Source of the DNA: a virus
Taxonomy: Duplodnaviria; Heunggongvirae; Uroviricota; Caudoviricetes
Virus record (IMG/VR): IMGVR_UViG_3300028591_000001
Coordinates: 115,547 to 179,546 of that record
Direction: 5' to 3' (one strand)
Length of the DNA: 64,000 bases
Below, one piece after another: positions 3,011 through 34,622 of the stretch. The notes beneath the pieces are model-generated. The model did no database searches. It saw only the letters and a program-made list of their open reading frames with translations, and was not told the DNA's origin. Both the position numbers and the translations under genes were made by a program. The first letter of the stretch is position 1, and every line of letters begins with the position of its first letter.

Positions 3011-3012
3011 AA

Positions 3013-3309
3013 TCAGTTTTGCTAACAAGTTCTTCTTTCTTCATCTTCTGGATAAATTTTAACTCCTCTAAAGAATTTTACTCTATGTAATTGTCTAGAG
3101 ACGAGTTCTTGTTCAACAAATTTTAAAAAATCTTCTGCATTTAAATCTGCAGACATTTGTATTACGGGCTTATCTAAATTATCAAAGTCTAATTCAACTT
3201 TAAAACCTGTCCCGCCCTTCCCTAATTTAGTCACTCTAACATGTCCAGTATATTTACATTTGTATTTACACTCAATCATATTAGTAATGGCTTCTTCCAT
3301 TTCATTCAT
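3013..3309 (-). CDS. Small late protein, about 99 aa, with one recoded TAG
   Basis: ORF 3022-3309 reads through TAG at 3022-3024 to TGA at 3013-3015. ATGA overlap with the upstream gene. Confidence 0.4.
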
Positions 3310-5585
3310 CTATATCTAGGATTACTTGTTATATTCATTCCTGGAATATATCCAGTATTTATTTCTCCTTTAACTTCAAATTTATTTTGAGTAGGAATTA
3401 TTCCGTATCTCTTAACTCCTTTTTCATCAAAATAATAACCAATATCTCTAAGTCCTTGTCCAACAGGCTTATATTCTCTTGGAATAACATCATTTAATTC
3501 TTCATCTCCAACTTCAGCCATTTGACAGGCAGCTACCATATCAAATTTTCCTTTATTTTCGTCAGTATAAAGATTTAACTATTCTAAAAATTCTATAAAC
3601 CAAATATTATGACAGTAATCTTCTACATAGGAAGCAACTAAGTCAGTACCATGTTCAATCATAGCTGTAGTAGCTGTGGTACCATACTAGTTATTATTTC
3701 TTCTTCTTTCATCTCCTCCATAACAAGCTCTAGGACGTCTCATAAAGAAATGTGCGAATTTATTATCGCGAGCATAAGTTAAAACAGATAAACGAGTAGC
3801 TTCTATATTTGCTTTTGCCTGATAATACCATAACATTGCCATTGTTTGCTTGTAAGCATCTCTAATATCATCTGGTCTATCAAGATAATAAGCTACATAA
3901 GTTGGCTCCTTCATTCCATGTACTCTTCTTTTTATCATTGTACAGAATTTAGAAGGATCTCTGGTTTGAACAGAGGTTTCTGCCTAACCAATATCAATAC
4001 CGTCTATTCCAGCAACATATAGATTTTGTATTATGGGACTACCATCTTCCCATAAAGGATGCTCTAATATTCTAACTGGACCATTTGGATTAGGTTTAAA
4101 TCTAACTCCAGTGATATTCTCCCTTTTTCTTTCAGGTCCAGAATAAATAAATTCCATATATCCTCTCTAAATAGGAGGAGCCTATTTTTTAATTCTAATA
4201 GAAATTATTTGTTCAGCTATTTTAAGTTTATTAAATTTATTTACACCTTCAGCTGCAAAAGCTTCTTCTGCTGTAAAACATTGCTCCGCCTTATGCTCAA
4301 GAAGTGTCTGTGGATCAGTAATTTCTGCTCTTCTCTATTCATAATATTCTCTTTGTTTTTTCATCAAGTATTCGCCTCGACTTCCAACAAACTTAGAGTT
4401 ATTCATTGATATATAAGCAGGAATAAAGTAAGCAGTTTCTACCCAATCCCCATCTTCTGTATAATTATGTTTAAAAGGCAGAACCTAGAACATTTTAGGA
4501 TTATAATATACTTTTCTAAGTCCTTCAAGGTTTGGACCCGCGTCACCTCCCGTTCCTACTGCTGCAATAATTCCAATTTTATTACCACCAACAGTAACAA
4601 GTTCTTCAGCTTTTATGAATGATCTCTCTAAGATAGGATTAGAACCAGACTCTTCAAGAAATAAGAAACCTACACGGTCACCACGCATCTTTCTATCTTT
4701 GTCCACAACTATGCCTTCTATTTGAGACATAAAACCTGTTTCAATCTTTTGTCCATTTACTACTTTATAATGAGAAGCTCTTTTCTTAGTAGCAGTATTA
4801 ATTACCTATCTAAGTTTAAGCATTCCTCCCTAGGTATTATCATCAGTAAATGTTATTCCAGCATTTATCTTATCAAGAGTTTTCTTAACATAATTATCAT
4901 CAAATGCTGTGAGCAAACATATACTATTTTTAAAACAATTAAAAAAGTTATCAAATATAGAAGCATGTATTTCAGAAAATCCACAACCACGGTTTTTCAT
5001 TACTGTCATATTCTTCCTTAACTTTCTACATAATTCAAAATAGTGGAAGAATTCGTATTGATAAACAAAGAAACGAGGAAATATAATAGAACGACTATCA
5101 CCTGCAACATCTTGTTCTGTATTAGGTAATTGATAGTAGTTAAGAAAATAATAGTTAAATCCAGTAATAGTATAACCATTAACTGTCATTCCTTCCTTGC
5201 ATCTTCTATATTCTTCATTCCAGAAATCTCTATAAAGTTTAGAACCAGGGTAGTAAGAACAATATTGTTCAGTTTTTAAAAATGTTTCACGAGCTTCAGT
5301 AAACCAAGAAGGATCAAAGTCTAATCCTTCTGTTTCTGTTATTGGTTTATATCCAGTTAATTCATAAGAAAGTCTTTTATCAAAGTAAGGTACTGGATCG
5401 TCTATTTTAACATCCCATTCACCTTCTCGATGTTCTATAGTAGTCTCTGGTTTAATTTCTTCTATTTGCTGTTGAAGTTCTTCTTGTTTCTATTTAACCT
5501 CTTCAACTATAGATTTGACTTCCTCAGGAATTTCTGGTATAGGATTCTTACGTGGACGGCCTCTTTTCTTTTTAACCTCTTCCAT
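3306..5585 (-). CDS. Large late protein, about 760 aa, with at least 8 recoded TAG codons. Possibly the terminase large subunit: C-terminal DxD...E...D pattern, N-terminal KRGRPRK.
   Basis: ORFs 4830-5189, 4485-4730, 3687-3938 and 3306-3539 share one frame and are joined only by TAG. ATG at 5583-5585 (MEEVKKKRGRPRK). Motifs VAGIDGIDIG, SYVEDY and GKFDMVAA suggest an RNase H-like nuclease, but no Walker A was recognised. Confidence 0.4.
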
Positions 5586-5589
5586 TAAT

Positions 5590-7800
5590 CAGGCATAAAT
5601 CCTTCAACAGCTCCACCACGTATTTGACTTTGCTCCATAACTTCTTTCTTAACAAGAGATTCGATTTGTTTAAGAGTTTCAATCTAATCAGCAGCTTCTT
5701 TCATTGAAGCTTGAACATCTTTAACTTTAATAAGGTATTTACCCTATTCATCTTGTTCTTGTAAGTCTACATTATGAAAATAGTCTATAATCTTATCAGT
5801 TACTTCCTAAGCAGCTTGAAGTAATCTAACATATCTATTGGAATCCTATAGTGCTACATACTTTCTACAAGCAGCACGAAATTCTGGATTATTCCATTCT
5901 TCCTCAGTAATATGAGCATCTTTTAGAGCGGCTTCATGTCTTTCCTAATTACTATAATTAGCATAAGGTGATTTCCAATCAATTGCTAAATATATATAAG
6001 TAAATTCTCTATCAGCTCTAATATGGTCTAATCCTGAAGGATCTTCTTTACATTTATTTCTAGAAGGTTCTAGTAATTTTTTAAATTCATCAATTAAAAC
6101 TAAATCAGCAGTTACTAATTGTGCCCTTCCAGTTTTCTAATTATAATCCCATATATTCATATTTACATTAACATTTTATAAATTAATTAATATTTATTAG
6201 TGGTTCTTTTAAATCCAGCAGTTTTAGATGTAGCATCATCAAATTTCTAGAAAATCCCTGTTCCCATATTTGGACGAGTCTAATCTAAACTTTTTACTCG
6301 TAAAGGAGTATATTCTACTCCAGGAAGTCTTCTTCTAATTGTACTAATCATAGATCCCGCACTACCAGGAGTAATGTTTCCTATTGTGCCTAAATAGTGG
6401 TCCGGATTACTTGCAATAACTTTTAATACCATTTCTCTTTCACTGTTAGGAAGCTTATCTAAAACATTATTCATATTTAATCTAGAAGCTTTTGTCATTT
6501 TATAACCATCATATATTTCCTAGTAATTAGGAATATTTGGAACTTGTTCTAATTTTTTTAATCCTGGAGTTCCTCCTCTAGCTGTCCCATTTGCTCGTCT
6601 TGTTGCAGCACTTTTTTGTCCTGCTATCATTCTTGCTTTTGCAATTTCTGCAGTTTTTGCAGCTTTCTATGCTTTCATAGCTTTAACCATTTGTAAAGCT
6701 TCCAAAGCATTTTTAGCTTTTACAGGTCCAGGGGCAGTTCCAGTCTAAGTATAAGGATTATTAGTAGTTCTACTTTTTTCTTCAATAAAATTATAAAGAT
6801 CTGTTAAAGGAAAGTTTGAATAATTTCCTGCTCCTTGAGGAACAGGATTATAATAATATTCTCCATTTATTCCTCTACCATTTATTCCTCCCTTTATAGT
6901 ACCTTCTTGATAAAAGGGATTCCGTTTAAACTACCTCCCTATAAATGTTTCTTAAGTTTAGAACCACATCTAGCTTTTTTAAATTCTGCTACAACTCCTC
7001 CTTGTTCTTTTTTTATCTTAGCTCCACATTTATGTTGAGGAGTTCCTTCACCTTTTCCTTGTCTAGCATCTTGTTGATTCTTTTTAGTTTTATCAATTTC
7101 TGCTTGAGTCATTTTACGATGTTTTCCAAGTTTTGGATCGTATGTTGTATTAGCTTCTGGGTCAACTTTAGCTTTAGCTTCTTCAATTTTTTGTTTAGCT
7201 CTATTTTTAAATCTTTCAACTGCAGAGCCTAATCCAGCTTTTGTTACTTGGCCTCCTTCTTCTTTTTTCTTGCAACCACAACCTACTAAACCACCTTTCT
7301 TATAATAAACCACTTCCTCGTCTTCAGCACATTGATTCTTTAAAGATTTGAAATAATTTAGTTTAGCACCATGAAGAGCTTTCTATTTTTGTTCTGAAGT
7401 CTATTCTTCTTGTTGAGTCTATTTTTTTCCTAGAACTTCATTAGTTTTTCTTTGAATATACTTTTCTCCACCTTGTGTCTAAACAAATTGTGCTAATTCT
7501 TTCTAATCTTTTGGATTTCTTTTATATTTATTCTAGAAATCTTTTACAATAGAAGATACTACTTTTTTCTATTTATCATCCATAGTTAATCAATTAAGAT
7601 TAAATCTTTTGTAGAGAATACTGCTTCCTGTAAAAAGCCATTCTCTGTAAACCATCTCACCTTTACTCCTTTAAGTAAAGGGTTTTTATCTTCATTTCTA
7701 ATTATAGAGCGTTCTACTCTATATACCAACATAATAGGTTTATTTGGTATGTCCTGGCGTAGAGTTACTCTCTACCCAGGAACAAAATAAATCTTTTCAT
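5590..7800 (-). other. Further late genes on the minus strand, TAG-recoded, including ORF 6280-6498 and the Lys-rich ORF 6939-7313. Boundaries unresolved.
   Basis: Continuous minus-strand reading frames broken only by TAG. 6939-7313 is a very basic K-rich protein. Confidence 0.35.
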
Positions 7801-7806
7801 CCATCA

Positions 7807-8397
7807 TTATTTATTTTTAATATTCTTGAATCTTTCAGTAAGATTTTCATTAACAACTGCAAGAACTCTGTTTTCGCATACAAGTTGTAAGTTCTGTTTA
7901 TAGAAAGGAACAGGTACTGCAGAATTTTTAGTAAAGAAAATAGTATCGTTAGGTTGACACCATTTTACTTCTGGACCAACTTCTTGAATAACTCCTACTT
8001 TAATAAATTGTTCTTCTTCTTCAATTTGACCATTATCAGTATTTTTATACTGAGGAGCCATACCTCCCATATCAAGAATAAGACCAGACTTAGAATCACG
8101 AACAATTCTTTGGAAAGGATTATCTTCAAATTGTTTTACAAGAACATAATTGCCGATAGGCATTATTTCTATATTGGCCATATTTTCATTTACTTTCTTA
8201 GCAAACTCCTCTACATTAGTAAATTGTTTATCAATTTTTTCTGTAAATTTGTCTACTTCTTCGTTAAATTTTTTAACATTACGTTGTTCAATAACGTCCT
8301 CTGCTGTAGTTCCATCTAAAGTCATTACTCTACTTGTACTTTCTCCTGCTACATGCATAGCAATTTTTTCATTCTCACTTAAAATTGGATGTTCCAT
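7807..8397 (-). CDS. GroES-like co-chaperonin (Cpn10 or T4 gp31-like) with an N-terminal extension
   Basis: C-terminal half MPIGNYVLVK...SGLIL...GVIQEVGPEV...GDTIFF...LAVVNE matches the GroES signature pattern. Uninterrupted 196-aa ORF. Confidence 0.5.
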   Translation of the reverse strand: MEHPILSENEKIAMHVAGESTSRVMTLDGTTAEDVIEQRNVKKFNEEVDKFTEKIDKQFTNVEEFAKKVNENMANIEIMPIGNYVLVKQFEDNPFQRIVRDSKSGLILDMGGMAPQYKNTDNGQIEEEEQFIKVGVIQEVGPEVKWCQPNDTIFFTKNSAVPVPFYKQNLQLVCENRVLAVVNENLTERFKNIKNK

Positions 8398-8398
8398 A

Positions 8399-8620
8399 TT
8401 ACCATTTATTCATTAAACATTTTTCAGATTCAATGCTTGCTTTACTTTTTAATATACAACCGCATTGATCACATATATGTGAACTCATATACTTTATATT
8501 ATGTTCACAAGTTTTACATATATCTAATCTTCTTTTTTGTTCATCTGAAGTATAACCAGTTAAATTTCTCCAGTTACCTACTATTATATTTCGTAATTTA
8601 AGAAAGAGATTCTTTAACAT
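8399..8620 (-). CDS. Small zinc-ribbon protein (CxxC...CxxC)
   Basis: 73-aa ORF carrying CKTCEH...CDQCGC. Confidence 0.4.
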   Translation of the reverse strand: MLKNLFLKLRNIIVGNWRNLTGYTSDEQKRRLDICKTCEHNIKYMSSHICDQCGCILKSKASIESEKCLMNKW

Positions 8621-8897
8621 CTTTGTAGTATCTTAGATATTCTTTATACTATCTTTCATCTAGATAGTAAATAACTCCATCTATTTCTACTTTTTTTAGC
8701 ATTACCATTTTCCAGCAACACAATGATTATTTAAGTTTCTCATCTTTATGAGAATGTGACAACCACAACCTCTGATAAATCCGGGTTTTGCAAAAGAGGA
8801 AACTTCATTAGTATCTGGATTTAACCAAAGTTTTGGATTACATAATCCCATAGCAGGACTAAAAATAGGACAATTCTTACAAATGTCTCTACGTTCA

Positions 8898-9809
8898 TCA
8901 ATATTCTATTCGTGCATATTTAGCTTTTTGTTTTTCTAATTTGTTTTGTTTAGCATAATGTTTTAACATCTTTTCTACATCCTCTTTTAAATAAGAACAA
9001 TGATATAAAGTATTTTTTCCAGAATGATCATAATGATTTAAAATTAAATCTTTTATAATGAAATCAGAATTTAATTTTTGAAGCATCCACGCATAAGTTG
9101 ATAATTGTAATTGATAGTGATTAAAATTACATTCATCTAAATGTCCTAAAGGATATTTCATTTTATCGGTACAACGATTTGCATTATTGTAAAATCCTTT
9201 TAAATCTATTTTAGCATTAGTTTTATGGTCTATGATATAAATATCATTTCCATTTTTTACTATAAGGTCTATTTGTCCTGCCAAGTGTAAATCAATTTTA
9301 GGATTATCATAATATATAAGGTACTCAGGATATATTCCATAGTCTAAGTTAAGATCAGTATAATCTTTTTTACATTCAAATTTTCCTCCAATACCAAACT
9401 TCTTTAAAGTAATATTAGAACCAGCATTATAAAAAGAATTTTCTAACTGTGCATGAATTTTAGTTCCTCTTTCACAAGCAATTCTATTTGTTTCTGCCCA
9501 TTCATCAAGAATATCTTGTTGAACTTTATTTAGATTTTCTTGAGATATATTATATACCTCTAAAAAATCTTTTGGTATTTTATGGTTTTTCCAAATACCT
9601 CCTTTTTCTTTTTTCCAGTCTTCTGGAGACATTATTCTTTCTAAAGCTTTATAAGCACTTACAAATTCCTTATCAAATTCTTTTCCATACCTTTCTATTA
9701 AAGTAGTTACAGAGATATATTTGATAGTAGGATCATTTAAATTTCCGTAGTAATGGTCAGCTTCTCTAAATCCTACTGAACCATTAATTTTATCATATCC
9801 CATTTTCAT
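8898..9809 (-). CDS. PD-(D/E)XK family nuclease (RecB or Cas4-like fold)
   Basis: 303-aa ORF with GQIDLIV...IYIIDHKT (D...D-x-K) and several Cys residues. No TAG. Confidence 0.55.
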   Translation of the reverse strand: MKMGYDKINGSVGFREADHYYGNLNDPTIKYISVTTLIERYGKEFDKEFVSAYKALERIMSPEDWKKEKGGIWKNHKIPKDFLEVYNISQENLNKVQQDILDEWAETNRIACERGTKIHAQLENSFYNAGSNITLKKFGIGGKFECKKDYTDLNLDYGIYPEYLIYYDNPKIDLHLAGQIDLIVKNGNDIYIIDHKTNAKIDLKGFYNNANRCTDKMKYPLGHLDECNFNHYQLQLSTYAWMLQKLNSDFIIKDLILNHYDHSGKNTLYHCSYLKEDVEKMLKHYAKQNKLEKQKAKYARIEY

Positions 9810-9832
9810 ATAACATATATTTTTTATTTAAT

Positions 9833-10441
9833 TTAAGAATTATCTTTTATATACTATAATATACCTTCTACATGAAGTCTTACAATTGCATGAAATCCTT
9901 CATCACTAAGTAAATAATCTACATCTTTTTTATTATCCTAAAAAAAGTTTTCTGTTAATACTGCAGGACAATTCGTATTTTTTAATACATATAAATGAGC
10001 TTCTTTATCTGGATCTCCATCTGACAAATCAATTCTCATTTTTTTATCCTTTAGATTAAGTTTTGCTGCATTATATAAACAGGTTGCAAGTTTATCAGCT
10101 TTTGTTTTTCCTACTGATGTATAAACTTCCCAACCTGTTGCATCATGCCACTTTCCATCAGAAGCGGCGGCATTTACATGTATTGAAACATATATACAAT
10201 TCTTATATTGTTTCACTAATTCATTAACAATTTTACATCTTAATTGTAATTCTTTAGATTGAGATACTTTTAAATCATCATCTTCTATATCAATAAATAC
10301 TTGGTATCCCATATCTTTAAGAATATCTCTTACAGCCTTACACACTTCTCTAGAATATTTATATTCTTTAAATCTTCCATCAGGAGAACCTTTCCCTAAG
10401 ATGCTTTTCTAATGAGCTGTGCCAAGAAAAATTGTAATCAT
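9833..10441 (-). CDS. N-acetylmuramoyl-L-alanine amidase (Amidase_3) endolysin with 3 recoded TAG codons
   Basis: MITIFLGTAH[TAG]KSILGKGSPDG...SIHVNAA...GWEVYT... ATG at 10439-10441. Reads through TAG at 10409-10411, 9938-9940 and 9854-9856 to TAA at 9833-9835. Confidence 0.75.
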
Positions 10442-11184
10442 TTGCATATTTTATCGTAGTCAAGAAGTAATGCTAATTTTTGAATATGAGGAAGAATATC
10501 TCCAGCATATTTATAATCATAACTTTTAGGTTCTTTATAAAAAAGAATAATTAAACCTATTTGAGAAGCATGTCCTTCGATAGTAAAAAAAGAAACAGAT
10601 TTTGCATTACTAGCTTTTACTAATCTATAAAGTTTTGGGAGAGAGTATCCCATGTCTTCTACATCCTCAAATTTAACAAAACTTTGACTGTGTATTTTAG
10701 ATAATTCATCTGCATAGTATATATAATCTAACTTATTCCACTACTATTGAAGAGTAGGAGTATCTAATGATCTTGGAGCTTCTGTGAGACAAGATAAATA
10801 CAAATATTTATAACCTTGTAAACTTTGAGTATTATTATGATAATTCAAAAGTAATACATCAAAAGCATCCCTATCTACTTCTGCTATCAGCTGGACCTAC
10901 TGATTTATTTCAATAGCAGTTTCCATAGAATATTGTTCAGCCTTTTTATTACTTACAATTTCCTACTCAAACCGTTCTGTCATTATTCTTCCAGTTTCTC
11001 CAGTTATCTGAGAATACAAAACCCATCCAAACAAAAGAACAATAATTAAAGTCTTCGTTTCTGGACGAATTCTATCAAGTACTCTCCACAAATACTTAAT
11101 CCAATTTAAATTCATTTTTTTGTTAATTATAAAATAAAAATATTTGTATTTACTCAAAGTTATTAGTATATTTAGTAATGTCAA
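10438..11184 (-). CDS. Lysis-associated membrane protein (holin or spanin candidate), TAG-recoded
   Basis: N-terminal TM segment LIIVLLFGWVLYSQI. ORFs 10963-11184 and 10438-10653 are in one frame joined by TAGs. Lies immediately upstream of the amidase. Confidence 0.4.
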
Positions 11185-11286
11185 AATAATTAATATTTAA
11201 AAATATAAAAATTGAATTTTTGAATAAGATATTTACTTTTAATTTAACACTTTATATAAAATATGAATAAAAAATAGATTAGAAAG

Positions 11287-12261
11287 ATGTAGACTGCTAG
11301 TGGAGGTCCACTTCAATTAACTCCAGAAGAACAAAAGTATTTAGAATGGAGTAAAATGACTCCAAAATAGCAATAGACTTATAGAATAAATAGAGCTAAA
11401 GCTTATTTTAATGATGGACAATTATGGAATGCAGCAAAATCTTATTTTGGAGGATTTGATCCTAGAAATCCACATTTAATTACTGGAGAGGCTCCTAGTC
11501 CAGGAATGAGAAATCCTAAGTAGATAATACAAGGAGTTTAGAAAGCTAAATCTATAGCTTAGAGAGCTGCTAAAATTTCTGATAAAGTGTTTGATAGACA
11601 ATATTGGAGGGCAATAAGTAGTGGAAATCCTAAGAGAGTTTAGGCTGTAAGAAGTTTACATTTTAGTGCTAAAGCTCCTGAAACAAAAGTTGTTGATATT
11701 AAAGGAAGACCTCAATTGGTAATTCATAAAACACCTAATTATTTTATAAAATTTGATAATAATAGAAGTTATGGAAAAGTAAATTGGTTTGCAACAAAAA
11801 ATGCTTTTGAAGGAGAAGAAGGAGTATTTGCAACTGGTGCTGGACGTAATCCGAGAGAAATGAAATTATATGTTAATATAAAAAATCCCCACATTCCAAC
11901 TTTAGATGAAGGGGTAGAACCTGCATATATAAATGAAGGAGAAGATGGAATTTTAGCAATTGTAGACAATAACTATACTAATTATTTTCCTTCTACGTCA
12001 AAAGCAGGAAAAGGATTTAGAATATCCGGGGGAGTAAATAATCCTTATGCGTTAAAATCCTATAATTCTATAACTTATGATAATAATGGAAATATTATTC
12101 CTATTTCTTAGAGAGATAATTTTTTAATTAATGATATAAGATATAAACAAGGAGGTAAAATGAATATATTAGAATTTTTAAAGAATGGAAGTAGAATCCA
12201 TATTAAAGAAAAGAACAAGGGTAAATATTTTAAATCAATTAATAAATATGTAAATGTATGA
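11287..12261 (+). CDS. Late protein of about 324 aa with 6 recoded TAG codons (the first is codon 2). Ends at TGA.
   Basis: Frame traced by hand from ATG 11287 through TAG at 11290, 11368, 11374, 11521, 11539, 11560, 11641 and 12109 to TGA at 12259. Confidence 0.5.
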
Positions 12262-13010
12262 TGGAAGAAAAATTAACAAAGGAAGAGTTACAAGAATTAG
12301 GAAGTTCTTTTAATTCAAAATTAGGAATGGATATGTTTAAGAAAATAGATGGAGTTGTTTATAAATTATGTACTAAATGTCTTAAATATAAACCAATGAA
12401 TGAAGAATATTTTCCACATAGAAGTAATGTAAAATGTGGATTTGATTCTAGATGTAAGGAATGTTATAAAGAAAAAGAAAAAACTAGAGTTAGAGTCAAA
12501 CCATTTAACGAAGAAGGAGAATTATATTGTTTAAAATGTAAGTAGTATAAACCTTTATCTGAATTTTATCCAAATTCTAGTAATACTAAAAATAGAAATT
12601 ATTATTCTAATTATTGTAAATCTTGTGAATCTGAAAGAAGTAAAATAAAAAGAGAAAATTACCATTCTGATGATCCTATTTTATTTTTTAGAGATTTAGC
12701 AACTGCTTGTAGAGGTAGGGCTTATCGTAGTAATAAATTTAAATGTACAATTACTAAAGAAGATTTGTTAGATTTATATGAAAAACAAAATCATAAATGT
12801 GCATTATCTGGAATTGAAATGACTACAATAAAAGAAAAAGGAAGATTACCAAATAATGCTTCTGTTGATAGAATAAATCCTGGAAAAGATTATTCTATTG
12901 ATAATATAAGATTAGTATGCAATCATATAAATATGATGCGATCAGATTTATCAGATGAAGAACTTTTAAAATATTGTAAAGCTATTGTAGATTATGTTAA
13001 TAGAATTTAA
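12258..13010 (+). CDS. HNH homing endonuclease with one recoded TAG
   Basis: ORFs 12258-12545 and 12765-13010 are in one frame joined by TAG at 12544. Motif ASVDRINPGKDYSIDNIRLVCNHINMM (HNH_3-like) plus Cys-rich zinc fingers. Confidence 0.7.
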
Positions 13011-13011
13011 A

Positions 13012-13845
13012 AAAGGAAATAAAATATATATTAAACCTAAAAATCGCGGCAAATTTACAAAATACTGCCACGGTAAAGTAACAGATGAATGTATATAGAA
13101 AGGAAAAAATAGTTCTAATCCTGCTATTAGAAAGAGGGCTACGTTTGCAGCTAATGCTAGAAAGTGGAAACATGAATCAGGAGGATTATTAAAGTTTGAA
13201 GAAGGAGGTAAAAATGGAGCTCCTTCTACTAAGTTTTTATCTAAATAGTGGTTTAAAAAAGCTGGAAATACTATAAACAATATTGGAAATAATATAGGAG
13301 ATTTCCTAAAAACAGATACGGGAAAAGGTATAATGGATATTGGATAGAATATTCTTAGTGGATACACTAATTATAAAAAAGCTTCTAATTTATTAGATTC
13401 TCAAGTAGAACAAAGTAAAGCTTCCTTAGAATAGGCCTATTAGGATACAATATAGTAGGCTATATAGAATAGGGCTATTCAACAATAGTTGGTAAAGGAA
13501 TAGTGGAAACAAGCTTATTAGAATGGAGAAACTTTAGATAATTATAGTGATATTGTTGCTCAACATATAGGATGGAATTAGTATAGTTCCGCTTTATAGA
13601 ATGCCGAACAATAGAAAAGACAGCAAGAAGCATTAATGGATTAGCAAGCTAAATAGGCTAAAAGTAATGCTCTAGGAAATTTATTTGGAAGTGTTGTATA
13701 GTCAGGACTTGGAGTTTTAGGTAATGTATTAGGAAAAGGGGGAATATCAAGTACTCCTACTACAAGTACCTCTACTACTGCAACGAATAATACTTAGTTC
13801 AGTTCTCCTTTAAATGATTCAACAAAATTTTGGAGTATAAAATAA
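13012..13845 (+). CDS. TAG-rich reading frame (more than 15 TAG) with no in-frame ATG. Its N-terminus (KIYIKPKNRGKFTKY) duplicates the C-terminus of 11287-12261, so it may be the downstream half of a gene split by the HNH insertion.
   Basis: Frame 1 is open from 13012 to TAA at 13843-13845. Similarity IHIKEKNKGKYFKSI vs IYIKPKNRGKFTKYC. Confidence 0.35.
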
Positions 13846-14389: not shown

Positions 14390-14391
14390 AG

Positions 14392-14463
14392 TTGTCCCAC
14401 TAGGATTCGAACCCAGGCTAAAGGATTTAGAGTCCCCTGTACTGACCGTTATACTATAGGACA
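14392..14463 (-). tRNA. Suppressor tRNA with anticodon CUA (reads UAG), probably Gln-derived
   Basis: Cloverleaf: acceptor UGUCCUA/UGGGACA (U1-A72), D GUAU-AACGGUCA-GUAC, anticodon stem GGGGA/UCCUU, loop CUCUAAA (U33, C34-U35-A36, A37), T-arm CUGGG-UUCGAAU-CCUAG, discriminator A. Resembles the phage tRNA-Gln(UUG) at 34623. Confidence 0.8.
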
Positions 14464-15627: not shown

Positions 15628-15657
15628 ATAACTAATATATTATTATTAAAATTTTTT

Positions 15658-15768
15658 CAAATTGATATTATCATTTTAACATTTTTTAAAATTGCAAAAT
15701 TGATAGGATTAATTTCAAAATTGATAATTTCAATGTCAAAATTGATAGAATTAATTTCAAAATTGATA
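15658..15768. repeat. Iteron array: 5 copies of CAAAATTGATA. Four are spaced exactly 21 bp apart (15695, 15716, 15737, 15758).
   Basis: Read directly from the sequence. Copies 2 and 4 extend to near-identical 33-bp units. Confidence 0.65.
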
Positions 15769-15771
15769 GCT

Positions 15772-15812
15772 AACTATACTTAAAACTATACTTAAGATAA
15801 ACTATACTTAAG
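15772..15812. repeat. Three tandem copies of AACTATACTTAA, followed by a GGCCGTGCGGCC near-palindrome
   Basis: Read directly from the sequence. Confidence 0.55.
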
Positions 15813-16042
15813 GCCGTGCGGCCATTATTTTTAGGTTAGAGATATACTCTACTTAAAAAATTTTTTCTAAAATTTTATTTTTTTTTAAATTTTTTTGGAT
15901 TTTTTTAGCATAAAATTTTTTTCTAAAATTTTTTTGGAATTTTTTGTGGGAGAGAGGGTGCTACCAACCGCCAGTCCCCCCACCCTATTTGAGTGAAAAC
16001 TCAAAAAGATACATATTATAAACTTTTAAAAACATTTCAATT

Positions 16043-18781: not shown

Positions 18782-19066
18782 ATGAAACAGATTTATTTGT
18801 TAAATGCATTTTCATTACAGATGGTAGACGTACCCTGCGATGTCCATTTTGAGGAAGTTGACGAACTTCCAGATGGATTGACCTCTGCAATTGGCCATCA
18901 AGATACAGCAAATGTTCTTGGTGTTCCAGTGAACAGAATTAATGTTCATCTTTCGAAAGGAGATACTGCTTATGTAGCTCAGTTACAAGGTGGACGTCTT
19001 CCTGAGGGTTCTACAACATTACCTGAGGGTTTTTCCTTTAAGTATATTAAGGTTGTAATAAACTAA
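18782..19066 (+). CDS. Hypothetical protein, 94 aa
   Basis: Start at the ATG in the AATTATATG context. Confidence 0.45.
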   Translation: MKQIYLLNAFSLQMVDVPCDVHFEEVDELPDGLTSAIGHQDTANVLGVPVNRINVHLSKGDTAYVAQLQGGRLPEGSTTLPEGFSFKYIKVVIN

Positions 19067-19069
19067 GAG

Positions 19070-20380
19070 AAAACTTTCAAAAAAACTCAATATAAAATAT
19101 CCTAATTTGTGCTGACTGAAATATGCCCTTCGCTTATAGGATTTCCAAGATGTTGAGGACGCCAGTTTCTTAGTGTGGCAGGGAGTATCTAACCCTGTGG
19201 ATTGCATTGGATGTAAAAGCTATGATACTAAGTTTTAGGTGTAAAACACAATTAAAAAATGACTGGATAGTTTAACCGGTTTAGCCGTGACTCATTGAAT
19301 GCCAGCATTATTGCTTAATAAGTGTGAGAGCAATTCACAATCTGCAGGTTGTGACGTCGAGGTATATCCGACGATAAATAAGATAATATACTTAATCAAA
19401 GATTACCACACATCGAAGAGGATAATAAAATAGCCCGAACTATACGGATTAACTAACGTGGAAAGAAGAGCTTATCTTCTTTAAATATATAGTAAAATAG
19501 GTGACTTATCAGTTCAATAAGAAACTGTTCGCTTACCCAAAGTGTTAAAGTCAGATTATGTACAGAAAATGGGCGGAGTAAATTCCCGTATAATCAATGT
19601 TCACAATATATGCCAGTATATTGTGTTCCGTATCGTTGTATGCTGGCACATACAATTGACGTAAGTAGACTTAACTACATAACAGTCGCAATGTTAAGCT
19701 CGATACCTAATGCGTGAAGGTATAATATTTAATGACCTATTTACATCCTTGGCAAAAGGCTCTGTCGCAAAAATATTAGGCATATAACCCTCAAATATGC
19801 GTGAGAGGATTAATTTTAAATTTAACAATATGATTATTTTCAATTTTAAGTTTAATTGAGGCGTAGCCGAACTTCATTCGTTACCAACTGAATGGTAAAG
19901 TTCATATGGCTAGAAAGAGGCAGTTGGAAGTTGCACACATGGCGGACACGAAAAGTAGGATGAAAGACTAGTAAGTGTTGATGTCTGATTCCAAAATTAC
20001 TCGAAGATGATAGAGTATAAGTAGTATCATCCATTCCTACGTGACATCTTGGAATTCGTAGTGAGGGAAACAAAGAGTATAAAAGAAATCTTTAACAAGA
20101 CAAAGTTGGCAGCTTGGAATAGACAGCAAATTTTAATTTAACAATCTGAAACTAACAATTTGAAACCGTCGAAATTTCACTGATGATTACCGAGGATTAA
20201 TGCTCGGATTCTACATGGTTGTTTTAGGATAACAACGTAGTAGGGCTTAAGCGACGTAAAAAAAGAGCCGAAATTGTTAAGTTTGTTTGGTCTCCATTCA
20301 TAATTGGATGGATGGAGACATTTTTTAAACTAAACAATATGAAATAATTAAAACTTTTAACAATGAAAAAAATTAATATA
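19070..20380 (+). ncRNA. Candidate large structured non-coding RNA of about 1.3 kb (GC-richer, no ORFs, many local hairpins). Ends at a terminator.
   Basis: No ORF of 60 aa or more in the standard or TAG-recoded code, other than short spurious ones. GC visibly above the genome average. Many helices, e.g. GATGATA...TATCATC and CTACG...CGTAG. Terminator at 20289-20328. Confidence 0.35.
20289..20328 (+). terminator. Rho-independent terminator
   Basis: GGTCTCCAT tcataattggatgg ATGGAGAC followed by ATTTTTT. Confidence 0.55.
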
Positions 20381-20565
20381 TGGCAAGTACTACTTGTCAT
20401 TTGTATATTATTTTGGGTTTGGGTAATAAGTTTTTTCGCATGAATGACTGGTTAAAAACAAAAAAGGGTTTGCAATACCTTCTACTAAAGTTCCCAAATG
20501 ATTTGGTAGTAAATGCAATTAAAGAGTTCCGGACAAATACAAGTTGTCCAAGTTATAAATTTTAA
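20380..20565 (+). CDS. Hypothetical protein, 61 aa
   Basis: ORF track. Confidence 0.35.
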   Translation: MASTTCHLYIILGLGNKFFRMNDWLKTKKGLQYLLLKFPNDLVVNAIKEFRTNTSCPSYKF

Positions 20566-21036: not shown

Positions 21037-21343
21037 GTCCAAAGGAAGCAATCCAAATAGCCAGGAAGTATAATCTTGAAGCTGAAGTTCGTCAAGAACT
21101 AGCTTCAGGATTAACTCCTGAAGAAGCATTAGAAGAATGGGATATTCTTTAAGACGAAATATCTACTCGGTAACCAATCCGAGCTCTAGGGCGTCTCTTT
21201 TAAATCCTTAGAGAGACTAATAAGAAAATAAGGGTTTAAAAATCTCTAACTAGAATTAGCTACTCTAGTCAATAGAGGGTTCAGGTTTTCGGCACGTTGC
21301 TTTTACTGAACATTTTTATTAATAGCTACAAACAATTAACAAT

Positions 21344-21944: not shown

Positions 21945-21949
21945 TTTAG

Positions 21950-22470
21950 TCAGGTAGCTCAGATAATATAAGAGCGTTCCCAGGATGGTGAAAGGTCGTT
22001 GGTGTAAATCCAACTCTGGCTACTTTAGGGAATAGTTTAAATGTTAGAACACTGATAGCCTAAGGAAGTACTTAGCAAGTAGGATTAGCTGATCCAACTT
22101 TTTTAGGAGAATACTATCAATAGAATGCAGGTACAAACTGCTTCCCTATTAATACCTTCCATCCTAGGTGAAGTGATGGTGACACATAGAGTGACGACCT
22201 ATGTAATATCCTAATGTCAACTTTTAGTTAGTACTGGCTAAAGGAATAGTCGATTTAGTGCTCTGGGTTTTCGACTATAAGTGAGTAACTAAGAGAAAAA
22301 CCAATTTCTTCTAGATGGAATTGGAGGGGTAAATGTTACGAGCAAAGGACGCTTTATTACCCCAATTTGGATAAGTAGCTCTAATTGGTTCCGACGATAT
22401 ATCGTTCCTTACTTCCGTCGGTTAGAGCCCTGGATTTTACTAGGAGGTTAGAGGTTCGATTCCACTCCTA
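21950..22470 (+). other. Cluster of tRNA-like or structured RNA elements (T-arm and D-arm-like hairpins, nested inverted repeats) that I cannot fold into canonical cloverleaves
   Basis: Contains GCTC-loop-GAGC D-like arms, GTTGG-TGTAAAT-CCAAC, GGGGTAA...TTACCCC, GCTCTAA...TTAGAGC nested hairpins and AGAGG-TTCGATT-CCACT. Confidence 0.3.
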
Positions 22471-22556: not shown

Positions 22557-22649
22557 AGCAGGTTGGTGTAATGGTCAACGTTAGTTGGTAGCTACTAATA
22601 CAACATATTCCTAAAAGGAATGATAAAGGTTCGAATCCTTTGCCTGCTG
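22557..22649 (+). tRNA. tRNA-like (93 nt) with good acceptor and T-arm, an extra ~20 nt, and no identifiable anticodon
   Basis: Acceptor AGCAGGT/GCCTGCT, T AAAGG-TTCGAAT-CCTTT. Interior carries TGGTAGCTACT. Confidence 0.35.
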
Positions 22650-22713
22650 CAAATTTAATTTTGATTTTTCATAAATTAAAATAAATTAAAAAATAAAAAT
22701 AATTTTTAATGTT

Positions 22714-26786: not shown

Positions 26787-26789
26787 TAA

Positions 26790-27583
26790 TAGTAGTACAA
26801 GGATTGAAAGTGTCCAGGTTTAAAGATTTCCTTATTGCTGATGATCAAGTGGTTGCCATGGTAATAGTGGTTCTAGGTGATGGCAAGTCCTAGACTAGCA
26901 ACAGCGACTGGCTCAGATAAACAATTGAAGGATTAAGTGTAATAACGCGCTACTATTATTTAAATCAGATTAGTTTTAATAAAATTTTAAAGAACAGATA
27001 TTCTGTGCGAGTATCGGGTTAGTGCAACCTCACACAGAAGAAAAATAATGGTTATTACCGTGACTATCTCCGCCAAATTGTAGGTAGAAGTACATGAGCA
27101 ACGAAAGCCTTGTCACCTACTCGGGAAAACGTGAAAGAATAGTTCTGTTCTTTAAATAATATAAGACTGAAGCTTGATATCGGGATAGCAATTAAAACCC
27201 GCTTTTCCTCTCTTGGAAGTAATGTTGGATAGATATAGCCCAATATTGTTATGAAGTAGAGATAAAACGGCTCGAAGCCACTCTTTTAAAAATAAAGGTA
27301 AACCAAAGAGCATACTCCAGATACGACAACAATACTCTAAGGAATTCCTTTTAAAAATAGGATTTACAGGTCAAAGAGAAGACGGATAATTGTGTAAATA
27401 ATAGAGGTTTAATGGCTCTACAAAACAAAACAGGGTTAAATAGCAAGTAGCACCGTAAATGCGAAATGGTTAGAGAGTAATCTCGGTAAGCCTTAAATAT
27501 GGTAAGGTACCCTTGAGTGAAGAACACGATCCTATTTGTTTTATGGCACAGAAGTTAGTTACTTACAAATTTAACAATTAATT
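26790..27583 (+). ncRNA. Candidate structured non-coding region (~0.8 kb, GC-richer, hairpin-rich) upstream of the Ro-like gene. Ends with the GTTACTTACAAAT module 15 nt before ATG 27584.
   Basis: No ORFs. Helices such as TTGCCAT...ATGGCAA and CTGTG...CACAG. Contains GTGACTATCTCC, related to other tRNA-like pieces. Confidence 0.3.
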
Positions 27584-29625: not shown

Positions 29626-29764
29626 GGGGAACTTGAGTAATGGTAAGCTCAAATTATATACGGGTAACCTAGGACAATCTTTTGATTTAGGGTTACCTAC
29701 AATATCATCATCTATAATTTTTCTAGGATTTCTAGAGATGTAAGTTCAAATCTTACGTTCCCCG
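29626..29764 (+). ncRNA. tRNA-like RNA (139 nt) with acceptor, D-arm, class-II variable hairpin and T-arm, but no anticodon loop. The anticodon region is replaced by the hairpin GGGTAACC...GGGTTACC-TACAAT.
   Basis: Acceptor GGGGAAC/GTTCCCC perfect with discriminator G. D GAGT-AATGGTAA-GCTC. T GTAAG-TTCAAAT-CTTAC. 8-bp helix AAATTATA/TATAATTT encloses the module hairpin. Confidence 0.5.
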
Positions 29765-29995
29765 CTAATCCAAACTATAACAATATTATTGACGTTCTTG
29801 ACATATGAATTGAAAGCAAACGTAGGTGCTTTAATTGCATTGGTAAACGTTAGGATAAATCAAGACCTAATACTAAGGAAGAAATTGTTATTTCTGTACA
29901 GAGTTTGGATTAAATTGCCAGGGTAACTCAATAAATTGATTTTAGTAATTTTATTAGTTACTTACAATACTATAGTTTTCAAAAAGGTTAGAGTA

Positions 29996-30045
29996 TTTGA
30001 TTGAAATTCAAAGAGTTGTTGGTTCGATTTCAACTCCGCCCACCA
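29996..30045 (+). pseudogene. tRNA-Phe(GAA)-like 3-prime portion (anticodon arm, T-arm, acceptor 3-prime strand, encoded CCA). No matching 5-prime acceptor or D-arm was found.
   Basis: TTTGA-TTGAAAT-TCAAA, T GTTGG-TTCGATT-TCAAC, TCCGCCC A CCA. Preceded by a closed module hairpin ending TACAAT at 29964-29969. Confidence 0.35.
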
Positions 30046-30127
30046 AATAAGTCGTGAGACTTTATGTCATTGTAATAAATGACCATACGCAGAAGTTTTA
30101 AATGACAGTCCGAAAAGACGGACACTT

Positions 30128-33341: not shown

Positions 33342-33457
33342 GAGGGAATTGGTGTAATGGTAACACACGTAGCTTTTGTATCTTTTGATACATACAATAT
33401 CATTATGCGATGAATTGTGGTTTTCCGTGTTCTAGGTTCGAGTCCTAGGTTCCCTCC
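33342..33457 (+). ncRNA. tRNA-like RNA (116 nt) with acceptor, D-arm and T-arm, and the module hairpin TGTATC-TTTT-GATACA-TACAAT in place of the anticodon arm
   Basis: Acceptor GAGGGAA/TTCCCTC, D GGTG-TAATGGTAA-CACA, T CTAGG-TTCGAGT-CCTAG. Confidence 0.45.
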
Positions 33458-34548: not shown

Positions 34549-34622
34549 CAATGTCGTGATGACATCATAGTATAAATTTTTGTACACGTTAGTTACTCAC
34601 GTGGGGAAAAGTAGTAGCAAAT

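What the first reader, a model, noticed from the sequence alone, without database searches (positions are those of the whole stretch)
19070..20380. 1.3-kb GC-richer, ORF-free, hairpin-dense region; candidate large structured RNA
An AT-rich phage seldom leaves 1.3 kb non-coding. The sequence has elevated GC, many local helices and ends at a clean intrinsic terminator, which suggests a stable transcript. Large ornate RNAs such as GOLLD and ROOL are known from phages with tRNA arrays. Similar smaller regions lie at 26790-27583, 46290-46460 and 52119-52508.
Basis: inference. Interest (0 to 1): 0.65.

Follow-up and report, generated by a model that had tools for sequence, protein, structure and literature searches.

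The report
Structured RNA gene cluster in crAss-like phage
The 1.3-kb gene-free stretch is a string of separate conserved folded RNAs, not one giant RNA, and its first unit is an apparently undescribed double-pseudoknot RNA that sits at the same genomic spot in many crAss-like phages, a group that includes very abundant human-gut viruses.

Summary
The region 19067-20379 is non-coding: all six frames carry TAA, TAG and TGA, even though this phage recodes TAG. It ends at a real intrinsic terminator. GC content equals that of the flanking genes, and fold energies match shuffled sequence. Comparative data show real structure.

The stretch is a plus-strand array of modules:
- **M0** (19079-19249)
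- **Mx**
- **M1** (19595-19810)
- **M2** (19860-20076)
- **M2b**
- **M3 plus terminator** (20166-20326)

M0, M1 and M3 have strong covariation. M2 is about 95% conserved, but its fold is unproven. The modules come and go independently in relatives, and protein genes can lie between them, so this is not a GOLLD- or ROOL-like single RNA.

M0 belongs to a large phage-only family, found in more than 200 viral contigs and in reference Crassvirales genomes, once per genome. It has a compact double-pseudoknot fold. It matches no Rfam 15 family, and its motif strings are absent from the searched literature. It always lies just inside the rightward gene block after a divergent switch, usually 12-50 nt upstream of varied small genes.

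Function is unknown. My best guess is a cis-acting 5' leader.

The parts
19079..19249 (+). M0: double-pseudoknot RNA, the first module. 5' box AAAAAAACUCAAUAUAAAAUAUCC at 19079-19102. Clade-specific P1 hairpin at 19099-19142. Pc hairpin 19144-19146/19157-19159 with loop AAGAUGUUGA at 19147-19156. PK2: loop 19151-19154 pairs with 3' tail 19245-19248. P2: 19160-19163 with 19238-19241. Junction AGUUU at 19164-19168, probably paired with the 5' AAACU. Variable P3 domain at 19169-19232.
   Evidence: Covariance model hit of 56 bits, E=2e-11, the only real hit in the window. Covariation on 74 sequences: 94.5% of cells paired against 35-43% when partners are slid, 0/500 shuffles reach it. On 134 sequences: PK2 pairs UA108/CG23 and GC108/AU19/GU6; the variable P2 pair AU111/GC12/GU11; the most variable Pc pair UA103/CG28. 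The 5' box is associated with the junction variant.
19252..19594 (+). Mx: a less conserved non-coding segment with local hairpins at 19336-19353 (CACAA/UUGUG) and 19355-19373 (CGUCG/CGACG). A mini-ORF starts at 19259 (MTG*, or 19 aa if TAG is read through).
   Evidence: Patchy conservation: 19331-19395 is 86% identical in L012 and 19401-19468 is 77% identical in L029. One compensatory change, CGUCG/CGACG to CAUCG/CGAUG, in L012 (alignment A2). The evidence is thin.
19595..19810 (+). M1: structured RNA. Hairpin H1 at 19602-19625. Hairpin H2 at 19636-19655. Kissing loops UGCCAG (19611-19616) with CUGGCA (19643-19648). Long-range helix 19668-19675 with 19693-19701, enclosing a variable mini-hairpin. 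H4 at 19703-19723. A 3' extension includes H6 at 19789-19808.
   Evidence: 13 distinct sequences: 94.9% paired against 22-50% when slid; 18 pairs changed on both sides; 0/500 shuffles. The kissing helix is 100% paired with 2 compensated positions. RNAalifold keeps 16 of 35 pairs through changes on both sides.
19812..19859 (+). AT-rich spacer carrying the phage's gene-start motif (AAUUUUAAAUUUAACAAUAUG), followed by a 9-codon mini-ORF at 19830-19859.
   Evidence: The motif also precedes real genes at 16980, 17690, 18533, 21336, 30489, 45292 and 46504. A 7-9-codon ORF is kept at this position in L012 and L013, but its sequence is not conserved (alignment A1).
19860..20076 (+). M2: a highly conserved, optional non-coding module whose fold is unproven.
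   Evidence: 5 copies, about 95% identical. 0 of 60 predicted pairs show two-sided compensation. L013 carries a self-contained 29-nt hairpin insertion. The minus-strand frame is open in 4 of 5 copies, but substitutions fall 9/9/10 over the three codon positions, and indels break the frame in L012 and L013.
20105..20135 (+). M2b: short conserved element GUUGGCAGCUUGGAAUAGACAGCAAAUUUU. A second gene-start-like motif follows at 20128-20149, with CUG in place of AUG.
   Evidence: Conserved in L012, L013, L021, L037 and L158. Motif family D1.
20166..20326 (+). M3: pseudoknotted RNA that ends in the intrinsic terminator. Closing helix GUCG (20168-20171) with CGAC. Invariant CACUGAUGAUUAC and GAAAUUGUUAAGUUUGUUUG blocks. 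Two covarying hairpins. Terminator at 20290-20319 plus a T-run.
   Evidence: 12 genuine copies. RNAalifold keeps 18 of 33 pairs through changes on both sides. Read from the sequences: closing helix CUCG/CGAG, GUCG/CGAC, GACG/CGUC, UUCGC/GCGAA; crossing helix GGCU/AGCC, CCCA/UGGG, GGCCG/CGGCC, GGGGG/CCCCC. Terminator scan.

Best explanation
The stretch 19067-20379 is a non-coding RNA locus on the plus strand of a distant crAss-like jumbo phage that recodes TAG. It is a modular array of separately conserved structured RNAs: M0, Mx, M1, M2, M2b and M3. It is probably made as one primary transcript that stops at the M3 terminator.

M0 is the local copy of a large, phage-only RNA family. Its compact double-pseudoknot core consists of hairpin Pc, whose loop pairs with the 3' tail (PK2); helix P2, which encloses a variable P3 domain; and probably a 5' AAACU/AGUUU helix that crosses P2. 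M0 is single-copy and sits at a conserved position, just inside the rightward gene block that starts at a divergent switch. In most phages it ends 12-50 nt before the start codon of a varied small gene.

Shown: the region is non-coding, the plus strand is the one read, the M0, M1 and M3 folds covary, the modules are independent, and M0 is widespread with a conserved position.

Inferred: M0 acts in cis as a structured 5' leader on whatever follows it (about 40%). It could protect the transcript from nucleases, or act on the transcribing polymerase or the ribosome. The clade-specific downstream modules would be stable small RNAs released from, or carried on, the same transcript. By positional analogy with phage phi14:2, the locus is probably transcribed early, abundantly and persistently.
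For: Non-coding:
- All three stop codons occur in all six frames.
- Stop-masked six-frame translations hit no Pfam or PHROG family.
- The homologous stretches in relatives are also ORF-free.

Conservation and modularity:
- Conservation in relatives is similar to that of flanking genes.
- The order M0, M1, [M2], M3 recurs on one strand in the window, L013, L162, L021 and L170. L016 and L034 have ORFs between M0 and M3 instead.

Structure:
- M0.
- M1.
- M3.
- G-U pairs in covarying helices fix the plus strand; for example P2 is AU111/GC12/GU11 with no A-C.

Breadth of M0:
- 98 matching stretches from a core-based scan.
- Only 13 MAG contigs of inconsistent taxonomy among 185,579 species genomes.
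- Reference Crassvirales genomes of Suoliviridae and Steigviridae, one place per record, always unannotated.

Position and context of M0:
- The same layout in cr6_1, cr128_1, cr114_1 and cr10_1.
- In 73 of 103 loci an ORF starts within 150 nt of M0, mostly 12-50 nt, and these ORFs are unrelated to each other.

Not already known:
- No Rfam match, even for compact members.
- The motif strings are absent from the searched literature.

Precedent: phi14:2 makes abundant, persistent rightward long non-coding RNAs from long intergenic regions near its left end (bioRxiv 10.1101/2020.03.07.982082).
Against: - No expression data exist for this phage, so transcription, RNA ends and processing are all inferred.
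- No conserved promoter lies upstream of M0; information content is about 0 until position -3.
- The M2 fold has no covariation, and Mx evidence is thin.
- In this window M0 is followed by more RNA rather than a gene, which fits a translational role poorly.
- phi14:2 has no detectable M0, so that precedent is positional only.
- Fold energies are no better than shuffles.
- The extreme sequence invariance of M0's unpaired segments suggests a specific ligand, catalytic or protein-binding role rather than a generic stabiliser.
- An unnamed entry for M0 may exist among the 10,006 candidates of PMC10690425. Its supplements were not available.
Confidence: 0.72

Rival explanations
1. M0 is a catalytic or ligand-sensing RNA, meaning a new class of self-cleaving ribozyme or a riboswitch, rather than a passive leader. 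As a ribozyme it would cut at its own sharp 5' edge and free the downstream RNA from upstream transcripts. As a riboswitch it would sense a metabolite or signal and gate the genes that follow.
For: - A compact double-pseudoknot core with roughly 45-50 invariant nucleotides, many of them in formally unpaired segments.
- Variable peripheral stems P1 and P3 inserted at fixed points.
- Conservation starts abruptly at U|AAAAAAC with no upstream signal, as in ribozymes that cleave at their 5' end.
- Extreme sequence conservation across phages that share no other DNA similarity.
Against: - No match to any ribozyme or riboswitch family in Rfam 15.
- The helix order differs from HDV-like ribozymes, and M0 is not next to tRNAs as theta ribozymes are (0 of 109).
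- The downstream genes are diverse and unrelated, which is unusual for a metabolite riboswitch.
- No conserved terminator or other expression platform follows M0.
- It is single-copy per genome, whereas small self-cleaving ribozymes often occur in several copies (own knowledge).
Confidence: 0.17
2. The whole 1.3 kb is one large ornate RNA of the GOLLD or ROOL kind, and the modules are domains of a single fold.
For: - The module order is conserved in five independent contigs.
- There is one terminator, at the very end, and none inside.
- The phage is rich in tRNAs, like phages that carry GOLLD or ROOL (own knowledge).
Against: - No GOLLD or ROOL match at any threshold.
- M2 is absent in L011, L158, L163 and L170.
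- Two ORFs separate M0 from M1 in L021, and ORFs replace M1 and M2 in L016 and L034.
- M0 occurs alone as an ~80-nt unit in most phages.
- Each well-supported module closes on itself, and no long-range pairing between modules was found.
Confidence: 0.05
3. The region is decayed or unrecognised protein-coding DNA: pseudogenes, a gene read in another code or frame, or the minus-strand ORF across M2.
For: - Two gene-start motifs lie inside the region (19812-19833 and 20128-20149), one followed by a 9-codon ORF.
- A minus-strand frame is open over M2 in 4 of 5 copies.
- The phage recodes TAG.
Against: - All three stops occur in all frames.
- No family hits in six frames.
- The ORF-free state is conserved.
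- Substitutions are compensatory in helices and spread evenly over codon positions in the M2 frame (9/9/10), with frame-breaking indels in L012 and L013.
Confidence: 0.03
4. The conserved elements work at the DNA level, as a replication origin, promoter array or packaging or recombination sites near the divergent switch, and not as RNA.
For: - M0 always lies within 1-3 kb of a divergent switch. In the window it lies 3.5 kb from a replication-initiator gene.
- It has invariant sequence blocks and sharp edges.
Against: - Helices are kept through strand-specific G-U intermediates that would be A-C mismatches on the other strand. The variable P2 pair is AU111/GC12/GU11 with no mismatch, and PK2 includes 6 GU.
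- A long-range loop-to-tail pseudoknot and kissing loops covary, which double-stranded DNA function would not require.
- M3 ends in a plus-strand terminator.
Confidence: 0.03

Closest known systems
Long non-coding RNAs of crAss-like phage phi14:2 (g004-g005 and g005-g006 intergenic regions; Drobysheva et al., bioRxiv 10.1101/2020.03.07.982082)
   Same: A 1-2-kb ORF-free stretch a few kb into the rightward block of small genes in a Crassvirales genome. In phi14:2 it is transcribed rightward, above most protein genes, from the earliest time point and without later decline, and its function is undetermined. phi14:2 is in the same subfamily (Asinivirinae) as M0-bearing cr128_1.
   Different: No M0 is detectable in the first 9 kb of phi14:2, even with filters off (best 15.6 bits). 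This is positional analogy, not shown homology. The held text of that paper (searched by term, not read in full) says only that the functions of these RNAs remain to be determined.
Phage T4 gene 32 mRNA leader pseudoknot
   Same: An H-type pseudoknot at the 5' end of a phage leader, followed by a short A/U-rich spacer and a start codon. M0 has Pc plus PK2, and usually 12-50 nt to an AUG. The role of the T4 element is cited in PMC10690425.
   Different: The T4 element sits before one specific autoregulated gene (the ssDNA-binding protein), whereas M0 precedes unrelated genes or other RNAs. M0 has extra helices (P2, P3, a probable 5' helix) and far higher sequence conservation.
HDV-like and theta ribozymes of recoded gut phages (PMC10879173)
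   Same: Compact nested double-pseudoknot RNAs with a variable peripheral hairpin and a sharp 5' edge, found in Bacteroidota-infecting, stop-codon-recoded phages (the helix scheme is own knowledge).
   Different: No Rfam HDV-family hit. In M0 the 5' strand of P2 follows the small hairpin instead of preceding it, and the hairpin loop pairs with the 3' tail rather than with the J1/4 joining region. M0 is not adjacent to tRNAs. Cleavage was not tested.
GOLLD and ROOL large ornate RNAs
   Same: Non-coding, phage-associated, found in tRNA-rich genomes and of unknown function.
   Different: No covariance-model match. The region is an array of independent modules of roughly 30-340 nt (the three well-supported ones are 160-220 nt), not one 500-800-nt fold.
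HK022 put antiterminator RNAs (own knowledge)
   Same: A cis-acting structured RNA, single or few per genome, near the head of a long co-directional phage transcription unit. It would be expected to be highly conserved because it binds a conserved polymerase.
   Different: put is two simple stem-loops and M0 is a double pseudoknot.

Membership tests
GOLLD / ROOL / HEARO / group I and II introns / tmRNA (Rfam 15) | Covariance-model score at or above the family's gathering threshold | tested here: not met
   The whole-window gathering scan returns only tRNAs. An E<=10 scan of 18900-20500 returns only chance-level hits. ARAGORN finds no tmRNA.
Hammerhead ribozyme (suggested by the invariant CUGAUGA in M3) | A CUGAUGA core followed by stem II, a conserved GAAA, stem III and a UH cleavage site, and a covariance-model score above gathering | tested here: not met
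   Hammerhead_3 scores 18.8 bits against a gathering score of 48.5. GAAA is not conserved after the hairpins: the window has UUAAGCGAC and L013 has GUCUCCCGAG.
HDV-like / theta ribozymes | Helix order P1a-P2a-P3 hairpin-P1b-P4 hairpin-P2b, with the L3 loop pairing to J1/4 (scheme from own knowledge) | tested here: not met
   M0's order is 5' strand, Pc hairpin, P2a, junction strand, P3 hairpin, P2b, tail, and the Pc loop pairs with the 3' tail. There is no Rfam hit.
HDV-like / theta ribozymes | Position immediately downstream of phage tRNAs (theta subfamily, PMC10879173) | tested here: not met
   0 of 109 M0 copies have a same-strand tRNA ending within 100 nt upstream. Only 7 have one within 2 kb.
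HDV-like / theta ribozymes | Site-specific self-cleavage | not testable with these tools
   This needs an in vitro transcription and cleavage assay.
M0 family (defined here) | Pc hairpin with loop AAGNNNUUGA; P2 CRCC/GGYG enclosing AGUUU-P3-UUUUA; 3' tail UAAAAYRC pairing with the loop | tested here: met
   The window copy at 19141-19249 scores 56 bits, E=2e-11, against the model built from 74 family members, a set that includes the window's own copy. All helices are present.
phi14:2 long non-coding RNAs | Sequence or structure homology to the phi14:2 g004-g006 intergenic transcripts | tested here: not met
   The M0 model finds nothing significant in NC_021806 1-9000. The M1-M3 anchor patterns were searched only in loci held, before phi14:2 was fetched, so M1-M3 were not tested there.
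phi14:2 long non-coding RNAs | Equivalent genomic position: a long ORF-free gap early in the rightward block of small genes | tested here: met
   phi14:2 gap 2905-4601, compared with the gaps holding M0 in cr128_1, cr6_1, cr114_1 and cr10_1 and with the window's 19067-20379.
phi14:2 long non-coding RNAs | Abundant, early and persistent transcription | not testable with these tools
   No expression data are available for this phage or its relatives.
T4 gene 32-type leader pseudoknot | An H-type pseudoknot at the 5' end of a leader, a short distance upstream of a start codon | tested here: met
   Pc plus PK2 form an H-type pseudoknot. An ORF starts within 150 nt in 73 of 103 loci, mostly 12-50 nt. 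The window copy is followed only by a 3-codon ORF (19 aa with TAG read-through) at 19259.
T4 gene 32-type leader pseudoknot | Association with one specific autoregulated gene (an ssDNA-binding protein) | tested here: not met
   The downstream ORFs fall into many unrelated small clusters, the largest with 4 members.

The most novel reading that the evidence does not exclude
M0 is a new functional RNA class. It would be either a new self-cleaving ribozyme or an RNA that binds and reprograms a conserved host machine, such as RNA polymerase, the ribosome or an RNase. It would be shared by a large part of Crassvirales and related Bacteroidota phages and would control the non-coding and accessory transcription unit at the head of their rightward gene block. 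The downstream modules M1-M3 would be further new stable RNAs of the jumbo clade.
Probability: 0.25. Interest if true: 0.85.

Novelty: new variant of a known kind. Interest (0 to 1): 0.7.

Why it matters
Crassvirales include some of the most abundant viruses of the human gut, and much of their early biology is unknown. The one transcriptome of a crAss-like phage found here (phi14:2) reported very abundant, persistent non-coding RNAs of unknown function from the equivalent genomic position.

This analysis gives that kind of locus a concrete, testable anatomy:
- **M0:** a single-copy, double-pseudoknot RNA with about 45-50 invariant nucleotides. It is present in hundreds of phage contigs and in reference genomes of at least two Crassvirales families, always at the same place. 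It is absent from Rfam 15, and its motif strings are absent from the searched literature.
- **M1 and M3:** at least two further covarying RNAs in the jumbo clade.

The compact ~80-nt versions of M0 are small enough for direct cleavage assays, chemical probing, pull-downs and structure determination. M0 could also serve as a marker for this region when annotating phage genomes.

The result also carries a caution. Neither GC content nor fold energy revealed these RNAs.

Tried and rejected
- **Alternative genetic codes.** TAG recoding is real in this phage, but it does not open any frame in the region.
- **Pseudogene search.** Stop-masked six-frame translations against PHROGs and Pfam gave nothing.
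- **Relatives through the upstream gene (18782-19066).** Nine loci share only that gene, because the neighbourhood is mosaic. The downstream 151-aa protein gave one spurious locus. Relatives were finally reached through the 614-aa protein 7 kb away.
- **Direct blastn of the region against reference phages.** No match.
- **5' box pairing with the Pc loop.** This was my first pseudoknot idea. It was 97% paired but varied on one side only. The loop-to-3'-tail pairing has two-sided covariation and replaced it.
- **GUUUUA-GGYG-UAAAAC as a local hairpin.** Rejected, because GGYG covaries with CRCC.
- **Theta or HDV-like role in tRNA processing.** Rejected on tRNA adjacency and helix order.
- **Hammerhead in M3.** Rejected.
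- **Conserved promoter upstream of M0.** None found.
- **M0 in cellular genomes.** Only misbinned MAG contigs.
- **M0 in phi14:2.** Absent.
- **Cultured Bacteroides crAss phages.** They do not appear among the blastn hits.
- **Paralogues of the modules elsewhere in the window.** None, apart from the gene-start motif.
- **ENE-like triple helix.** The idea was that the U-rich internal loop AGUUU/UUUUA clamps the A6 tract. I considered it, but could not test it.
- **Earlier catalogues.** The supplements of PMC10690425 are not held, so I could not check whether M0 is one of its unnamed candidates.
Full report
**1. The observation**

The stretch between the stop codon of the upstream gene (19064-19066) and the next plausible gene (20380) has no credible ORF. 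The longest is a 73-aa TTG ORF on the minus strand.

The window holds 28 tRNA genes by ARAGORN. One, at 14391-14463 on the minus strand, has anticodon CTA and would read TAG. Allowing TAG read-through nearly doubles the long-ORF total (6,266 to 11,768 aa) and restores 736-aa and 760-aa genes in 244-13845. Read with TAG as Gln, these look like a portal protein and a large terminase. Recoding therefore had to be excluded as the cause of the gap. It is excluded: every one of the six frames across 19070-20380 carries TAA, TAG and TGA repeatedly.

The terminator at 20290-20319 plus T-run is real.
- Region GC is 0.342 against a window mean of 0.307, but the flanking genes are 0.349 and 0.331.
- Fold energies of 150-nt windows and of each module match dinucleotide shuffles, except at the terminator.
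- Non-coding DNA is not rare here: 30 gaps of at least 200 nt make up 17% of the window.

**2. Not a known RNA and not a hidden gene**

Rfam 15 finds only tRNAs in the window at gathering thresholds and only chance-level hits in the region at E<=10. Stop-masked six-frame translations hit no PHROG or Pfam family. The region has no blastn match in the reference phage collection.

**3. Relatives and conservation**

The upstream gene (PHROG 5063) occurs in nine IMG/VR contigs, but similarity stops exactly at its end, so the neighbourhood is mosaic. A 614-aa protein 7 kb downstream brought in true relatives, L011-L019. DNA pattern scans and the one metagenome scan added more.

In these relatives parts of the region are conserved at 71-87%, similar to the flanking genes. 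The homologous stretches also lack ORFs. Conservation is blocky and defines the modules.

**4. M0 (19079-19249)**

M0's invariant core occurs in 17 IMG/VR contigs. A core pattern that leaves the loop and tail free occurs in 98 stretches.

In cellular genomes the 3' box is found only on 13 MAG contigs of mutually inconsistent taxonomy, and in no isolate. That pattern is expected for phage contigs binned by mistake.

The compact form, about 80 nt, reads:

AAAAAACUYAAUAAC-UU(UCC)AAGN[UGUU]GA(GGA)<CACC>AGUUU{CU..P3..AG}UUUUA<GGUG>UAA[AACA]C

The window's clade has an extra P1 hairpin inserted after the 5' box, and a larger P3.

Covariation is strong:
- On 74 distinct sequences, 94.5% of cells pair against 35-43% with slid partners, and 0 of 500 shuffles reach the score.
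- On 134 distinct sequences, the most variable Pc pair is UA103/CG28 and the variable P2 pair is AU111/GC12/GU11 with no mismatch.
- In the same set, the two variable pairs of the loop-to-tail pseudoknot PK2 are UA108/CG23/UG1 and GC108/AU19/GU6, with 3 mismatches in all.

PK2 first appeared in reference genomes that had not been selected on the tail. An unbiased scan then confirmed it.

All six copies with the variant junction UUAGUU have a matching AACU[A/G]A 5' box, and none of about 130 CUC or CUU boxes do. This points to a further helix (AAACU/AGUUU) that crosses P2. M0 is therefore a compact double pseudoknot.

G-U intermediates fix the plus strand. No Rfam family matches even compact copies. 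The motif strings do not occur in the searchable literature.

**5. Context of M0**

- It is single-copy: one real covariance-model hit in the 64-kb window (56 bits) and one place per complete reference genome.
- In 73 of 103 loci an ORF of at least 40 aa starts within 150 nt, mostly 12-50 nt. These ORFs are unrelated small proteins.
- No conserved promoter sits upstream. Conservation begins abruptly at U|AAAAAAC.
- It is not tRNA-associated.
- It is present in reference Crassvirales genomes of Suoliviridae and Steigviridae, always in unannotated DNA.
- In cr6_1, cr128_1, cr114_1 and cr10_1 the layout is the same. A divergent switch is followed by one or two small rightward ORFs, then an unannotated gap of 0.6-1.5 kb that holds M0, then a run of small hypothetical genes.
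- The window repeats this layout, with the switch at 15628-16042 and M0 3 kb inside the block.
- The window's terminase-like protein is most similar to Crassvirales terminases (27-29% identity, E about 1e-43). Related contigs are 175-180 kb. The source is therefore a distant crAss-like jumbo phage of a Bacteroidota host.

**6. The other modules**

- **M1 (19595-19810).** It has 13 distinct copies: 94.9% paired against 22-50% slid, 18 pairs changed on both sides, 0 of 500 shuffles. Its two hairpin loops, UGCCAG and CUGGCA, are complementary. In the divergent L029 copy both change and stay complementary (AGCAG/CUGCU), which indicates a kissing-loop contact. RNAalifold adds an invariant long-range helix around a variable mini-hairpin.
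- **M3 (20166-20326).** It has 12 copies. RNAalifold keeps 18 of 33 pairs through two-sided changes. A closing helix and a second helix that encloses its 3' strand both covary when read from the sequences, giving a pseudoknot. The module ends in the terminator.
- **M2 (19860-20076).** It is about 95% identical in 5 copies but has no two-sided compensation. A minus-strand frame is open in 4 of 5 copies. However, substitutions fall 9/9/10 over the three codon positions, L012 has frame-scrambling 1-nt indels, and L013 has a 29-nt hairpin insertion with stops. I treat M2 as non-coding with an unproven fold.
- **Mx (19252-19594).** It has only patchy conservation and one compensatory change.
- **Spacers.** AT-rich spacers before M2 and M3 carry the phage's gene-start motif, which also abuts real start codons elsewhere.

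**7. An array, not one RNA**

The order M0, M1, [M2], M3 on one strand recurs in the window, L013, L162, L021 and L170. But M2 is missing in L011, L158, L163 and L170, two ORFs lie between M0 and M1 in L021, and ORFs replace M1 and M2 in L016 and L034. In most phages M0 stands alone before a gene.

The locus behaves as a cassette with a constant leader (M0), a constant terminator module (M3, in this clade) and variable cargo. In this window the cargo is RNA only.

**8. How it probably works**

Shown: non-coding status, strand, the folds of M0, M1 and M3, modularity, and the breadth and fixed position of M0.

Inferred: one plus-strand primary transcript that ends at 20319-20326. The only terminator is at the end.

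In the crAss-like phage phi14:2, long intergenic regions at the equivalent position are transcribed rightward above most protein genes, from the earliest time point and without later decline. Their function is undetermined (bioRxiv 10.1101/2020.03.07.982082). phi14:2 has no detectable M0, so this is analogy only.

M0 has no terminator of its own, sits a short and fairly constant distance before varied start codons, and is single-copy at the head of a long co-directional block. Its most likely role is therefore a cis-acting 5' leader (about 40%), either protecting the transcript or acting on the polymerase or ribosome.

The invariance of its unpaired segments keeps a catalytic or ligand-sensing role alive (about 17%). 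A processed, trans-acting RNA is also possible.

**9. Novelty**

None of the modules matches Rfam 15. M0 is not described in the literature I could search. It may be an unnamed entry among the 10,006 candidates of PMC10690425, which does not mention crAss phages. I rate this a new variant of a known kind, a phage structured non-coding RNA or leader pseudoknot, with a realistic chance that M0 is a new functional class.

Noticed in passing
window 14391-14463 (-) and 244-13845: A suppressor tRNA with anticodon CTA sits next to a block of genes that give long ORFs only if TAG is read through. The block includes portal-like (867-3077) and terminase-like (3306-5588) genes. The rightward block from 16043 on mostly does not need read-through. 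This matches the pattern of late-gene TAG recoding described for gut phages.
   Followed up: partly
window 33343-33456, 52509-52602, 50516-50592, 22557-22650: Rfam calls tRNAs of unusual length (114 nt and 94 nt) that ARAGORN does not report, possibly tRNAs with introns or inserts. ARAGORN also reports a tRNA with a two-base anticodon at 22557-22650.
   Followed up: no
window 16980, 17690, 18533, 19822, 20138, 21336, 30489, 45292, 46504: A gene-start motif (UUUAA..UAACAAU directly abutting AUG) recurs before real genes: 31 matches against 16 expected. It also occurs twice inside the non-coding region without a gene. It could be a promoter that gives near-leaderless mRNAs, or a Bacteroidota-type translation-start context.
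   Followed up: partly
window 15770-16040, 21164-21343, 21946-22230, 26787-26964, 27251-27295, 29738-30067, 34228-34622: Other non-coding gaps are also conserved in relatives (74-97% identity) and match no Rfam family.
   Followed up: partly
window 60570-60625 (-): A weak second hit to the M0 model (19.5 bits, E=0.04), with an AAAACUCAAUACAA 5' box but a poor core. It is probably chance.
   Followed up: no
window 19144-19159, 19703-19723, 19789-19808: Three hairpins share the form CC-AA....[G/U]UGA-GG: M0 Pc (UCC AAGAUGUUGA GGA), M1 H4 (ACCU AAUGCGUGA AGGU) and M1 H6 (CCUC AAAUAUGCGUGA GAGG). They could be a common protein-binding or tertiary motif.
   Followed up: no
window 19197-19226 and L026 (inside its P1 hairpin): The sub-element GUGGAUUGCAUUGGAYGUAAAAGCUAUGAU lies in the P3 insert of the window's M0 but in the P1 insert of L026's M0. 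A peripheral sub-domain seems to have moved between stems.
   Followed up: no
loci L084, L144, L121, L141, L058; and L055, L143, L072: Two recurrent motifs lie at variable distances just upstream of compact M0 copies: ACAACUGAGUGCAGAGGGG and CCUAAGCAUGUGUAUAAACUG. They could be phage promoters or further RNA elements. Many other copies have a GC-rich hairpin 5-15 nt upstream.
   Followed up: no
window 18782-19066: The small gene upstream of the region (PHROG 5063, unknown function) is found at 49-89% identity in nine otherwise unrelated phage neighbourhoods, so it moves as a single-gene unit.
   Followed up: partly
window 19259-19318: An AUG lies 10 nt after M0 and opens a 3-codon ORF (MTG, then TAG). 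It becomes a 19-aa ORF if TAG is read as Gln. Its length would therefore depend on whether the suppressor tRNA is active.
   Followed up: no
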